Assembly (NCBI GenBank): GCA_046306195.1
Contig: JBKDXO010000126.1
Location: 11,289-75,288 of the forward strand
Source of the DNA: Planctomycetota bacterium
Lineage (GTDB): Bacteria; Planctomycetota; Planctomycetia; Pirellulales; Pirellulaceae
Direction: 5' to 3'
DNA: 64,000 nucleotides
Within the stretch, counting starts at the first letter, position 1. Every line of letters starts with the position of its first letter. The notes under the pieces are model-generated. The model was not told where the DNA came from, did no database searches, and saw only the letters and a program-made list of their open reading frames with translations. The position numbers and the translations under genes were made by a program. This document shows positions 6,546 through 8,720 of the stretch, in pieces.

Positions 6546-6639
6546 ACGAACAGCCAGAACAACACGATGCACCAAAGGTCTCGGTCGGCCGGGCTGAATT
6601 GCGTTGAGTTAACACCTCGACCTTGGTGATCGTCCCCAT

Positions 6640-6969
6640 TTATTGGAAGGACCGTCCGCACCCACACGACTTGACTGCGTTCGGGTTTTCGAACGTAAAA
6701 CCTTGTCGCTCGAGGCTACTGAACCAACCGAGGGTCGTCCCCTCCAGAAGCAACGCACTCTTTCGGTCGATCACTACCGCCACCCCATTTTGCTCAACGC
6801 GGGTGTCCTTCGCCTCATCAAACTTATCGTCGAAATTCAACGAATACTCAAAACCGCTACAGCCCCCGGCGACGACCCCGACACGAACGAAAGTCTCGTC
6901 TCCGAACTGCGCTTCCGAATGGGCCCGTTTCAGCTGATCAGCAGCTTCGGGCGTAACGTTGATCGCCAT
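6640..6969 (-). CDS. HesB/IscA family iron-sulfur cluster assembly accessory protein
   Basis: GGCSGFEYSL and FENPNAVKSCGCGRSF with three conserved Cys. Start MAINVT at 6969. Confidence 0.93.
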   Translation of the reverse strand: MAINVTPEAADQLKRAHSEAQFGDETFVRVGVVAGGCSGFEYSLNFDDKFDEAKDTRVEQNGVAVVIDRKSALLLEGTTLGWFSSLERQGFTFENPNAVKSCGCGRSFQ

Positions 6970-7012
6970 ACTCAACCTCATGGTTCGATTAATGGTTATG
7001 AAAATGCTTGGA

Positions 7013-7044
7013 TGGCCCCGAGGAGCCGTGGCCCCGAGGAGCCG
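7013..7044. repeat. Perfect 16-bp tandem duplication (intergenic)
   Basis: tggccccgaggagccg occurs twice, head to tail. Confidence 0.9.
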
Positions 7045-7231
7045 AGCAAGCTGGTTTTCCAAGCTCTCTCGAACATGGTATGCAGGGTAGGGAGTGGATG
7101 GCAAGCCAAAATTGCCTTTGCAAGAACAGTCCAGCTGGTTATTCTTAGGAGCAATTCCACCCCCCCGAGACGGAATTCGGTGCGGTTGAAGTGGTTCACG
7201 GTTCGAATTTGCAAGGAAATGACGGAAAATC

Positions 7232-7330
7232 ATGGTAAAACCCCATCGAAAACTCAAAAAAGCAAACCACGGTCAGCGGGCAGCCAACAGCAAGGCTCGC
7301 AAGGCGAAACGACGCAAGGTTCGTACGTAA
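7232..7330 (+). CDS. Small basic protein (32 aa), ribosomal protein bL37-like
   Basis: Hand translation gives MVKPHRKLKKANHGQRAANSKARKAKRRKVRT*. It has a KANHGxR motif, very high K/R content and a purine-rich tract upstream. It is below the ORF-track length cutoff. Confidence 0.7.
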   Translation: MVKPHRKLKKANHGQRAANSKARKAKRRKVRT

Positions 7331-7397
7331 CGCGTTCCGGGAAGCGCCTTTTCCTCCCTAGAACGGGTTCGCCCCCTCAAGCTCAGGATACCGCCCC

Positions 7398-7919
7398 ATG
7401 GCCATCAGAGACTTCATCGTGGACCCAGACACGATTGATTTCAGCAAGGTCGTCGCGGATATCGAGGAAATTCGAAAGTACAACCCGCAGCGGTTCGAGA
7501 TGGAACAGCTGACGGCGATCGTGTACGAGGACCCCGTGCGGGTAGCGTGCGTCGGCTACAAGGACGTTTCCGAAGACGAATTCTGGGTTCGGGGGCACAT
7601 GCCCGGCATGCCTCTCATGCCGGGGGTAGTCATGCTCGAGGCCGTAGCTCAGGTTTGCTGTTACTGCTCGCACAAAAACAAGCTTCTCGGGGACGCCTTG
7701 GTTGGTTTCGGGGGTCTGGAGGATGTCCGCTTTCGTGAACCGGTCGTTCCTGGGGATCGTTTGATTGTGATGTGCGAGCTGCTAAAGCTCAGAAAGCCCT
7801 ACCTGCTCGTTTGTCGATTCCAGGGAATCGTCGAACGCAACATCGTGGTCGATGGTCAACTCAAGGGGATCCCGATCCCGGTCGATATGCTTGCCCAGCG
7901 AGAGCGAGTCCGCGGTTAA
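7398..7919 (+). CDS. fabZ: 3-hydroxyacyl-ACP dehydratase (FabZ/FabA family)
   Basis: GHMPGMPLMPGVVMLEAVAQ and VRFREPVVPGD hot-dog fold motifs. Confidence 0.88.
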   Translation: MAIRDFIVDPDTIDFSKVVADIEEIRKYNPQRFEMEQLTAIVYEDPVRVACVGYKDVSEDEFWVRGHMPGMPLMPGVVMLEAVAQVCCYCSHKNKLLGDALVGFGGLEDVRFREPVVPGDRLIVMCELLKLRKPYLLVCRFQGIVERNIVVDGQLKGIPIPVDMLAQRERVRG

Positions 7920-7943: not shown

Positions 7944-8720
7944 TCAGGGCTTTGCGGCTGAGTCTGGTTTTGTGGGTATGGGCGTTGCACGCACCCGCGA
8001 CGGAACTCCGTAGATGTCGTTCTTCGACTGGCTCGCTAGTGGCTGAGCAAGCTCCACGCCTGCGATCGCAGCAAGCACGAGTGTGACCACGAAGTAGATC
8101 GAGTAATGGAGAAAGGATTGTCCGACCTCCAGTTCGCATGCTCCCACGGATACGGCAACTCCTAGGCCGAACATTACGGCTAAGAAGATCGCCAGTTGAA
8201 TCGGTTCGATCTCGGCCAGGGTGCGATTTCCGAAGTAATAAGCCAACAGTGTATACACTCCCCATGTTGCCGCGAAAACCGCAGCGCAAGTGCCCAATCG
8301 GATCCAGCGTTCTTTCCCGATGTATCCACCCAGTTCATCATCCTTGAAGAACGTATAGCCCATGGAAGTCAGGGGGTATGCGAGGGCGATTGCGGCACTG
8401 ACTAAAATCCAGGTCGGAGGCGATTGGGATGTCGCTCGCAAGAAAATCGCACCGATCAAGCAGCAGGCTGCGATCGCGCAAGCCAAAATGATTTGCCACG
8501 TTGATGGATCGAATTCGACGCGTCGGATCGGCTTCAGGACCGGTCGTCCGCTCGAGTCCTTCGGTCCCTGCGTTTCCGGGGCGTGAATGACCACTTCCTG
8601 GGTTTTGTCCGGGACCGTGATCACCTGTTTGCATTTGGGGCATGGCCCCTGCTTGCCGGCGAACTTGTCGCTGACCGAAAATCGTGCGAGACAACCTGGG
8701 CAGGTAACTGGGATTGGCAT
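7944..8720 (-). CDS. Membrane protein with N-terminal zinc ribbon
   Basis: CPGC...CPKC at the N-terminus, followed by 5-6 hydrophobic segments. Confidence 0.75.
   Translation of the reverse strand: MPIPVTCPGCLARFSVSDKFAGKQGPCPKCKQVITVPDKTQEVVIHAPETQGPKDSSGRPVLKPIRRVEFDPSTWQIILACAIAACCLIGAIFLRATSQSPPTWILVSAAIALAYPLTSMGYTFFKDDELGGYIGKERWIRLGTCAAVFAATWGVYTLLAYYFGNRTLAEIEPIQLAIFLAVMFGLGVAVSVGACELEVGQSFLHYSIYFVVTLVLAAIAGVELAQPLASQSKNDIYGVPSRVRATPIPTKPDSAAKP

What the first reader, a model, noticed from the sequence alone, without database searches (positions are those of the whole stretch)
7232..7330. Unannotated 32-aa ORF resembling ribosomal protein bL37
MVKPHRKLKKANHGQRAANSKARKAKRRKVRT is absent from the ORF track. 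From memory, its KANHGxR core matches the C-terminal motif of bL37, a tiny 50S protein identified in mycobacterial ribosome structures and usually linked to Actinobacteria. Here the motif is central and followed by a basic tail. If real, this would be a variant ribosomal component in a planctomycete-like lineage that standard gene callers miss. A nucleoid-binding basic peptide is an alternative.
Basis: partly seen in the sequence, partly recalled or inferred. Interest (0 to 1): 0.7.

Follow-up and report, generated by a model that had tools for sequence, protein, structure and literature searches.

The report
Planctomycete ribosomal protein bL37 gene
The 32-codon ORF is a real, strongly conserved and transcribed gene for the planctomycete form of the tiny large-subunit ribosomal protein bL37. 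NCBI already names this family, so the call is correct but not new.

Summary
The ORF at 7232-7330 (+) exists as described. ATG 7232 is the first start after an in-frame TGA at 7220-7222. It matches NCBIfam NF047429.1 "ribo_Plancto_bL37" over its full length (62.3 bits, cutoff 40, E 3.9e-17). One-residue variants in its 90% cluster are named "50S ribosomal protein bL37" in GenBank Pirellula and Pirellulaceae records.

A degenerate-motif scan found 120 genome loci, 118 labelled Planctomycetota. Nearly all have an ATG exactly 8 codons before KKANHG and a stop 32-35 codons after the start. Outside the scanned motif, pN/pS is 0.40 in frame, against 1.3-1.4 in the shifted frames.

Metatranscriptome contigs cover the ORF and run into the downstream FabA-like gene.

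A family profile hits mycobacterial bL37 chains (E 0.002-0.08) through KxxRKxxKANHGxRP. The architecture differs: the motif is central and followed by a 14-residue basic tail.

No planctomycete ribosome structure or paper was found, so presence in the 50S is inferred, not shown.

Verdict: observation confirmed, interpretation supported, already known in databases. Noticed in passing: the profile also hits Tetrahymena mitoribosomal mL102 (E 4.5e-6).

The parts
7232..7330 (+). Coding sequence of the 32-aa planctomycete-type bL37 (ATG to TAA)
   Evidence: sequence. (NF047429.1, 62.3 bits, positions 1-32 of 32). (conserved start and stop across the family). (purifying selection in this frame). (covered by metatranscriptome contigs).
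7259..7279 (+). Codons 10-16, KANHGQR: the motif shared with actinobacterial bL37 and Tetrahymena mL102
   Evidence: K9 K10 A11 N12 H13 G14 R16 are invariant in alignment A1. They align to KANHGKRP of 7kgb_v, 5o60_3 and 6dzi_3, and to KKANHGARP of 6z1p_AQ.
7286..7327 (+). Codons 19-32, the basic C-terminal tail NSKARKAKRRKVRT, which the 24-aa actinobacterial bL37 lacks
   Evidence: Conserved family-wide, with R23, K26, R27 and T32 at 90% or more. It aligns with mL102 residues up to 87. The isolated peptide is predicted helical.
7118..7145 (+). Putative sigma-70-like promoter: TTGCAA (7118-7123), 16-nt spacer, TATTCT (7140-7145); inferred transcription start near 7152
   Evidence: The block is conserved in upstream alignments of close relatives. 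RNA contigs start at 7171 or later and none covers 7011-7170. This is an inference; the consensus scan did not report it.
7213..7219 (+). Purine-rich Shine-Dalgarno-like stretch AAGGAAA, 12 nt before the ATG
   Evidence: Read. Relatives also carry purine-rich GGA/AGGAG stretches upstream of the ATG. Weak evidence.
7332..7347 (+). Small hairpin GCGTTCCGGGAAGCGC followed by CTTTTCC, directly after the stop codon; possibly a leaky terminator or RNA-stabilising element
   Evidence: terminator-like site, but 3 were found against 1.8 expected, so it is not significant alone. RNA contigs read through it.
7398..7919 (+). Downstream FabA/FabZ-like dehydratase gene, co-transcribed with the bL37 gene
   Evidence: Pfam PF07977, E 2e-22. 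RNA contigs bridge 7171-7460, 7266-7409, 7270-7458 and 7279-7532. A FabZ-like gene lies downstream in 70 of 103 loci with enough flank.

Best explanation
This is the gene for the planctomycete form of large-subunit ribosomal protein bL37. It has its own promoter in the divergent intergenic region shared with iscA, and it is transcribed together with the downstream FabA-like gene. The 32-residue, very basic product (14 K/R) is inferred to insert into 23S rRNA. The likely site is the pocket that actinobacterial bL37 occupies beneath the tip of 5S rRNA, formed by H39, H40, the H41/H42 junction, H72 and H89 next to the peptidyl-transferase centre. There it would act as a cation-like brace for rRNA tertiary structure. 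The invariant KKANHGxR(P) stretch would be the element that recognises the pocket. The extra C-terminal basic tail, absent from the 24-aa actinobacterial protein, would lie along neighbouring rRNA backbone.

Shown here: it is a real gene, under purifying selection, transcribed, a member of the curated family, and significantly similar to structure-determined bL37. Inferred: residence in the 50S subunit, the binding pocket, and the role of the tail.
For: Family membership: NF047429.1, 62.3 bits against a cutoff of 40, full length; all 50 aligned relatives hit it.

Database naming: one-residue variants in the same 90% cluster are named '50S ribosomal protein bL37' in Pirellula and Pirellulaceae records. 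More distant relatives in Blastopirellula, Bremerella and Neorhodopirellula carry the same name.

Homology to solved bL37: the profile of A1 hits M. tuberculosis 7kgb_v (E 0.0021), 7sfr_v (0.0051), M. smegmatis 5o60_3 (0.034) and 6dzi_3 (0.082). All align profile positions 3-17/18 to KRDRK[YH]SKANHGKRP.

A second ribosome-embedded relative: Tetrahymena mL102, E 4.5e-6. It is described as sitting between the central protuberance and the L7/L12 stalk (PMC7326499).

Conservation: 120 motif hits in genomes, 118 labelled Planctomycetota, across Pirellulales, Planctomycetales and Ca. Kuenenia. Start and stop are fixed.

Selection: nine DNA versions of the identical peptide differ at 28 columns, 27 at codon position 3 and one a synonymous CGA/AGA change. 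In 117 loci chosen only through codons 9-19, the other codons give pS 0.744, pN 0.299 and a ratio of 0.40, against 1.40 and 1.31 in the shifted frames.

Translation-related neighbours: L13-S9-IF1 lie directly upstream in Neorhodopirellula and Allorhodopirellula. The tRNA methyltransferase TrmB lies downstream in 51 of 103 loci.

Transcription: RNA contigs from several lake and freshwater metatranscriptomes cover the ORF.

Pocket description: PMC5876184, PMC10085706.
Against: No planctomycete ribosome structure or proteomic detection was found. A PDB sequence search gives no planctomycete chain, and no paper holds both 'bL37' and 'Planctomyc'.

The window peptide scores only 14.9 bits on the actinobacterial model, whose cutoff is 30.

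The architecture differs from the solved protein. There are 8 rather than about 13 residues before the motif, with Pro4 among them, and 14 extra residues after it. The N-terminal helix that contacts H89 in mycobacteria is therefore not obviously present.

The window's lineage has Ala at position 17, where 102 of 111 family sequences have Pro.

Short K/R-rich peptides can give inflated similarity scores.

Metatranscriptome contigs can contain DNA carry-over and have no strand information (notes).

The NCBIfam name is a curator's judgement, not an experiment.
Confidence: 0.8

Rival explanations
1. A free basic peptide that is not a stoichiometric ribosome component. It could be a nucleoid- or RNA-associated polycation, or a secreted antimicrobial peptide of the kind proposed as a second role for C. 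acnes bL37.
For: The composition is extremely basic, with 14 K/R in 32 residues. C. acnes bL37 peptide inhibited Gram-positive bacteria in disk assays (PMC10085706). No experiment places the planctomycete peptide in ribosomes.
Against: The specific invariant motif KKANHGxR is shared with two proteins seen inside ribosome structures, bL37 and mL102. A generic polycation would not need it. There is no signal peptide or export gene nearby. It is adjacent to L13-S9-IF1 in some genera. Selection on nearly every residue is tight.
Confidence: 0.1
2. A regulatory upstream ORF (leader peptide) whose translation controls the downstream FabA-like/TrmB genes, with the peptide product itself unimportant.
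For: It is small and lies 67 nt upstream of the FabA-like gene, with which it is co-transcribed. The pairing is conserved in 70 of 103 loci. A small hairpin follows the stop codon.
Against: Leader peptides are not usually conserved residue by residue across a phylum. Here 11 columns are invariant and pN/pS is 0.40, against about 1.35 out of frame. The gene persists with the same sequence where the downstream gene differs: L013, and the Planctomycetales-type 'MAKT' loci, 15 of 15 without FabZ-like or TrmB downstream. It also has sequence homology to bL37.
Confidence: 0.04
3. A chance ORF in an intergenic region with no product.
For: ORFs of 20-40 codons are abundant: 85 in 5 kb.
Against: HMM E 3.9e-17. 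Start and stop are conserved in 118 of 120 loci. Variation is confined to third positions. In-frame pN/pS is well below that of the other frames. RNA covers the ORF.
Confidence: 0.01

Closest known systems
NCBIfam NF047429.1 'ribo_Plancto_bL37' (equivalog; 50S ribosomal protein bL37, Planctomycetota form)
   Same: Full-length match, positions 1-32 of 32, at 62.3 bits against a cutoff of 40. Same length, same invariant residues and same phylum. One-residue variants in the same 90% cluster carry this name in GenBank.
   Different: The differences are minor. The Pirellula clade, including the window, has Q15 and A17 (GQRAAN) where the family consensus is G[KARS]RPAN.
Actinobacterial bL37 (M. smegmatis, M. 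tuberculosis and C. acnes; e.g. PDB 5O60 chain 3, 7KGB chain v, 8CRX chain V; NCBIfam NF047428.1)
   Same: They share K..RK..KANHGxR(P); 10 of 15 aligned positions are identical to the family consensus. Both are tiny, very basic, stand-alone genes often missed by gene callers. The inferred binding pocket next to H89 and the 5S tip is the same.
   Different: The actinobacterial protein is 24 aa, with a helix of about 13 residues before the motif and only 2 residues after it (PMC5876184). The window peptide is 32 aa, with 8 residues before the motif and a 14-residue tail after the RxA. The window peptie scores below the curated cutoff of the actinobacterial model, 14.9 against 30 bits. Published papers describe bL37 as Actinobacteria-specific.
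mL102 of the Tetrahymena thermophila mitoribosome (PDB 6Z1P chain AQ, 109 aa)
   Same: It is the best PDB hit of the family profile: E 4.5e-6, with RPPKKANHGARPCSSVMRRLKKK aligned to profile positions 6-28. Both the motif and the basic tail align. [quoted passage not shown]
   Different: It is a 109-aa eukaryotic mitoribosomal protein with additional N- and C-terminal parts. The source paper does not mention bL37. Whether it occupies the bL37 pocket was not checked here. In plants the name mL102 denotes an unrelated PPR protein.
N-terminal extension of uL30 in Borreliella burgdorferi (and mL63 in mammalian mitoribosomes)
   Same: It is reported to fill the same rRNA pocket as bL37 (PMC10618245). 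This shows the pocket is filled by different basic helical peptides in different lineages.
   Different: It is part of a larger protein, not a stand-alone gene. No sequence similarity to it was found here. Whether planctomycete uL30 is of the short type was not tested.

Membership tests
Planctomycetota-type bL37 (NCBIfam NF047429.1) | Whole-protein HMM score at or above the curated cutoff (40 bits), aligned end to end | tested here: met
   62.3 bits, E 3.9e-17, residues 1-32 on profile positions 1-32 of 32.
Planctomycetota-type bL37 (NCBIfam NF047429.1) | A 32-35 codon stand-alone ORF with Met exactly 8 codons before KKANHG and the conserved residues K3, K9, K10, A11, N12, H13, G14, R16, A18, R27 | tested here: met
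   The window sequence has all of them. The same layout holds in 118 of 120 genome loci.
Planctomycetota-type bL37 (NCBIfam NF047429.1) | Encoded in a Planctomycetota genome | tested here: met
   The identical peptide occurs in Pirellulaceae bacterium SH501 (CP197422.1) and in Pirellula sp. MAGs. The window's gene order LRAT, IscA, bL37, FabA-like matches L008/L104.
Planctomycetota-type bL37 (NCBIfam NF047429.1) | The product is a component of the 50S subunit | not testable with these tools
   There is no planctomycete ribosome chain in the PDB by sequence and no paper.
Actinobacterial bL37 (structure-defined; NCBIfam NF047428.1) | HMM score at or above the curated cutoff (30 bits) | tested here: not met
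   14.9 bits, E 0.022, with only residues 6-16 aligned to profile positions 11-21 of 24. 39 of 50 family members hit the model, best E 1.2e-5.
Actinobacterial bL37 (structure-defined; NCBIfam NF047428.1) | KANHGKRP motif | tested here: inconclusive
   KANHGQR is present, but position 17 is Ala in the window. It is Pro in 102 of 111 family sequences.
Actinobacterial bL37 (structure-defined; NCBIfam NF047428.1) | About 24 residues: an N-terminal helix of about 13 residues, then a C-terminal loop that ends the protein | tested here: not met
   The window peptide is 32 residues, with 8 residues including Pro4 before the motif and a 14-residue tail after the RxA. The actinobacterial description comes from PMC5876184.
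Actinobacterial bL37 (structure-defined; NCBIfam NF047428.1) | Buried in the pocket formed by H39, H40, H41/H42, H72 and H89 beneath the 5S rRNA tip | not testable with these tools
   This needs a ribosome structure or an RNA-protein model. AF2 on the peptide alone gives one helix, residues 6-31, at pLDDT 88, which says nothing about the bound state.
mL102 (Tetrahymena mitoribosome) | 109-aa mitoribosomal protein of ciliates | tested here: not met
   Only a 23-residue stretch aligns, at E 4.5e-6. This is a relative of the motif, not a member.

The most novel reading that the evidence does not exclude
bL37 is not an Actinobacteria-specific addition, as the published papers state. It would be one branch of an older and wider family of KANHGxRP peptides that fill the rRNA pocket beside H89. 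A long-tailed form would be shared by Planctomycetota (Pirellulales, Planctomycetales and anammox Kuenenia) and by the ciliate mitoribosomal protein mL102. In this form the C-terminal basic tail, not an N-terminal helix, would be the main rRNA- or A-site-facing element. That would give planctomycete ribosomes a distinct feature close to the peptidyl-transferase centre.
Probability: 0.3. Interest if true: 0.5.

Novelty: already known. Interest (0 to 1): 0.25.

Why it matters
For annotation, it confirms that a 99-nt gene many pipelines miss or over-extend is real and should be called as bL37.

For biology, the open literature still treats bL37 as specific to Actinobacteria. The data here show a well-conserved counterpart across Planctomycetota, with a different layout: the motif is central and followed by a basic tail. 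There is also an unremarked likeness to a ciliate mitoribosomal protein.

The bL37 pocket borders H89 and the peptidyl-transferase centre. A lineage-specific occupant there could affect antibiotic binding and ribosome assembly in a phylum whose ribosome has not been solved. None of this is new to NCBI's curators, so the finding is a confirmation rather than a discovery.

Tried and rejected
I worked around this with a 40-aa over-extended cluster member, P0006, with a search against all cluster representatives, and with a degenerate DNA motif scan.

Searches that gave nothing useful:
- Pfam has no model for the peptide; only sub-threshold noise appeared.
- Single-sequence phmmer against the PDB gave only a weak mL102 hit. 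The profile search was needed.
- Rfam found nothing in the whole window at gathering thresholds, so there is no known RNA element or ribosomal-protein leader here.
- The consensus promoter scan found no + strand promoter. The proposed one comes from conservation.
- Literature searches for bL37 in Planctomycetes, or for a planctomycete ribosome structure, found nothing relevant.

AF2 on the isolated peptide gives a single confident helix. I reject this as evidence for the bound conformation, because the motif is a loop in the mycobacterial structures.

I did not run a second large profile search for relatives in other phyla. At that database size, bL37-like scores of about 20 bits could not reach a usable E-value.

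The zero non-synonymous changes are partly by construction, since those loci were selected for an identical peptide. I therefore repeated the test on loci selected only through codons 9-19.

Full report
**The observation**

The + strand at 7232-7330 reads ATG...TAA and translates to MVKPHRKLKKANHGQRAANSKARKAKRRKVRT. Nine bases upstream there is an in-frame TGA (7220-7222), so ATG 7232 is the only possible start. An ORF of this size is not evidence on its own: the same 5 kb holds 85 ORFs of at least 20 codons. The neighbours are:
- an IscA/HesB-type Fe-S assembly gene on the opposite strand (6640-6969; PF01521, E 2.7e-18);
- a FabA/FabZ-like dehydratase 67 nt downstream on the same strand (7398-7919; PF07977, E 2e-22).

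**What it is**

The peptide matches NCBIfam NF047429.1, 'ribo_Plancto_bL37', an equivalog model described as '50S ribosomal protein bL37'. The match runs end to end (positions 1-32 of 32) at 62.3 bits against a curated cutoff of 40, E 3.9e-17. It matches the actinobacterial model NF047428.1 only weakly (14.9 bits, cutoff 30), through residues 6-16. Pfam has nothing.

The exact sequence is in the public protein collection on 180 contigs. One-residue variants in its 90% cluster are named '50S ribosomal protein bL37' in Pirellula sp. and Pirellulaceae records. More distant relatives carry the same name in Blastopirellula, Bremerella, Neorhodopirellula lusitana and Pirellulales MAGs. Older records call them hypothetical. 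The family and this member are therefore already recognised by NCBI.

**Is it a real gene?**

A phmmer search of 1.84 billion cluster representatives gave 127 hits at E<=1e-3. In almost all of them the match covers query residues 1-32 and ends at the C-terminus of a longer predicted protein. The upstream part of those proteins is unrelated from one hit to the next. Gene callers, in other words, over-extend a conserved 32-codon unit.

The family consensus is M[AT]KPHRxLKKANHGxRPAN[SA]KAR[KR]AKR[KR]x[VI][RK]T. In a 50-sequence alignment, M1, K3, K9, K10, A11, N12, H13, G14, R16, A18 and R27 are invariant.

- 118 are labelled Planctomycetota. They include Pirellulales (Rhodopirellula baltica, Thermogutta, Mariniblastus), Planctomycetales (Planctomicrobium, Gimesia, Fuerstiella) and the anammox genus Ca. 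Kuenenia.
- In 118 of the 120 loci a start codon (117 ATG, one GTG) lies exactly 8 codons before KKANHG, and the stop falls 32-35 codons after the start.

**Selection**

Eight different contigs encode the identical peptide. Together with the window, their DNA differs at 28 of 99 columns. Of these, 27 are third codon positions and one is a synonymous CGA/AGA change, while the flanks are unalignable without gaps. Those loci were chosen for an identical protein, so I repeated the test on 117 loci chosen only through codons 9-19. For codons 2-8 and 20-32:

| Reading frame | pS | pN | pN/pS |
|---|---|---|---|
| Annotated frame | 0.744 (saturated) | 0.299 | 0.40 |
| Shifted +1 | 0.305 | 0.426 | 1.40 |
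| Shifted +2 | 0.309 | 0.406 | 1.31 |

Mean column entropy by codon position is 0.89, 0.65 and 1.59. The frame is under purifying selection.

**Expression**

Contigs assembled from lake and freshwater metatranscriptomes lie on the region:
- one of 289 nt covers 7171-7460, that is the whole ORF and the start of the FabA-like gene;
- others cover 7266-7409, 7270-7458, 7279-7532 and 7330-7510;
- one run covers iscA (6639-7010);
- none covers 7011-7170.

This fits two divergent transcripts leaving the intergenic region, and co-transcription of the bL37 gene with the FabA-like gene. The caveats are that contigs carry no strand and can include DNA carry-over.

Upstream alignments of close relatives show a conserved block. 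It reads as a + strand promoter: TTGCAA 7118-7123, a 16-nt spacer, TATTCT 7140-7145, with an inferred start near 7152. Back to back with it is a − strand promoter for iscA. This is an inference. Rfam finds no known RNA element in the window.

**Context in relatives**

The gene order bL37, FabA-like, TrmB (tRNA m7G methyltransferase, PF02390) is widespread. Among 103 loci with at least 1.5 kb of downstream sequence:
- 70 have the FabA-like gene downstream, 51 have TrmB, 40 have both and 81 have at least one;
- the 15 loci with the Planctomycetales-type N-terminus (MAKT...) have neither.

The peptide is therefore conserved independently of its neighbours. In Neorhodopirellula and Allorhodopirellula the gene directly follows rplM (L13), rpsI (S9) and infA (IF-1).

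**Relation to structure-defined bL37**

[quoted passage not shown] It is buried in a pocket formed by H39, H40, the H41/H42 junction, H72 and H89 near the peptidyl-transferase centre, and was described as restricted to high-G+C Actinobacteria (PMC5876184). C. acnes has it too, contacting the 5S tip (PMC10085706). In Borrelia an N-terminal extension of uL30 fills the same pocket (PMC10618245).

A profile of the planctomycete family hits the following PDB chains, always aligning profile positions 3-17/18 with KRDRK[YH]SKANHGKRP:

| PDB chain | Source | E-value |
|---|---|---|
| 7kgb_v | M. tuberculosis bL37 | 0.0021 |
| 7sfr_v | 22-residue chain deposited as 'peptide' | 0.0051 |
| 5o60_3 | M. 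smegmatis bL37 | 0.034 |
| 6dzi_3 | 23-residue bL37 chain | 0.082 |
| 8crx_V | C. acnes bL37 (below significance) | 3.1 |

In addition, 39 of 50 family members hit the mycobacterial NCBIfam model, best E 1.2e-5. The homology is therefore supported. The layout differs, however. The planctomycete protein has 8 residues before the motif, including a proline, and a conserved 14-residue basic tail after it. The mycobacterial protein ends two residues after the motif.

**How it most likely works**

By homology, the peptide is a 50S component buried in 23S rRNA next to H89. The invariant KKANHGxR(P) stretch would be the pocket-recognising element, and the K/R-rich flanks would neutralise backbone phosphates. 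The tail probably lies along adjacent rRNA.

[quoted passage not shown] That is the general neighbourhood of the bL37 pocket. I could not inspect the coordinates, so this is a lead, not a result.

AF2 on the isolated peptide predicts a single helix, residues 6-31 (pLDDT 88). This shows helical propensity only.

**Rivals**

- A free polycationic peptide, nucleoid-associated or antimicrobial, cannot be excluded without biochemistry. It does not explain an invariant motif shared with two ribosome-embedded proteins.
- A leader-peptide role is contradicted by residue-level conservation and by persistence of the gene where the downstream genes differ.
- A chance ORF is excluded.

**Comparison and novelty**

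The ORF meets every sequence-level criterion of the Planctomycetota bL37 family. It fails the curated threshold and the length and layout criteria of the actinobacterial model. It is best described as the planctomycete branch of the bL37 family. A curated model with this name exists and near-identical proteins are already so named in GenBank, so the finding is already known. What is missing in public knowledge is experimental proof and any published description.

**Verdict**

Novelty is low, and interest is modest at 0.25. The main residual value is the mismatch between the 'Actinobacteria-specific' literature and the phylum-wide planctomycete family, together with the mL102 likeness.

Noticed in passing
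PDB 6z1p chain AQ residues 65-87, against window 7247-7315: The planctomycete bL37 profile hits Tetrahymena mitoribosomal protein mL102 (RPPKKANHGARPCSSVMRRLKKK) at E 4.5e-6, better than it hits mycobacterial bL37. The paper describing mL102 does not mention bL37. mL102 may contain a bL37-like module.
   Followed up: partly
L009-L012, L014-L135; window 7232-7919: The gene order bL37, FabA/FabZ-like dehydratase, TrmB (tRNA m7G methyltransferase) recurs across Pirellulales, Thermoguttaceae and Ca. Kuenenia: 81 of 103 loci have at least one of the two downstream. In Neorhodopirellula and Allorhodopirellula, L13-S9-IF1 lie directly upstream. Why a fatty-acid-type dehydratase is tied to a ribosomal protein gene is unexplained.
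   Followed up: partly
window 7075-7145: The intergenic region between iscA (-) and the bL37 gene (+) holds a block conserved among Pirellula relatives. It includes the near-palindrome GGCAAGCCAAAATTGCC (7100-7116). It reads as two back-to-back promoters: on the - strand TTGCCA, 18 nt, TACCAT; on the + strand TTGCAA, 16 nt, TATTCT. The palindrome could also be an operator.
   Followed up: partly
window 7332-7347: A small G+C-rich hairpin with a T-rich tail lies directly after the bL37 stop codon. RNA contigs read through it. It may be a leaky terminator that sets the bL37 to FabA-like expression ratio. Its conservation was not examined.
   Followed up: no
window 7274-7285 (codons 15-18): The window and its closest relatives (the Pirellula clade) carry GQRAAN, with Ala17. 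102 of 111 family sequences have Pro17, the residue shared with actinobacterial bL37 (KRP). This is a clade-specific change inside the core motif.
   Followed up: partly
L057 (JBLMWR010000224.1) and L094 (CAZIGZ010000100.1): Two MAGs labelled Deltaproteobacteria and Chitinophaga carry a full-length planctomycete-type bL37 gene. The contigs are probably mis-binned or the MAGs mislabelled, rather than this being a true occurrence outside the phylum.
   Followed up: no
L084 (JBBWWE010000031.1), around 1889-1985 in the orientation of the match: A divergent copy, ASRNNRKVKKANHGKRPANRNRRAAKSAKFKN, lacks a start codon at the canonical position and has a different tail. It may be a divergent subfamily or a differently initiated gene.
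   Followed up: no
Protein cluster (P0009): A 311-aa membrane-protein-like sequence (P0009, Logan) is listed in the same 90% cluster as the 32-aa peptide, although it lacks the motif. This looks like a clustering artefact.
   Followed up: no
window 7944-8720 (-): A 258-aa ORF has an N-terminal CPGC...CPKC zinc-ribbon-like pair followed by several hydrophobic segments. It has no Pfam match. A 260-aa ORF sits at the same position in L008.
   Followed up: no
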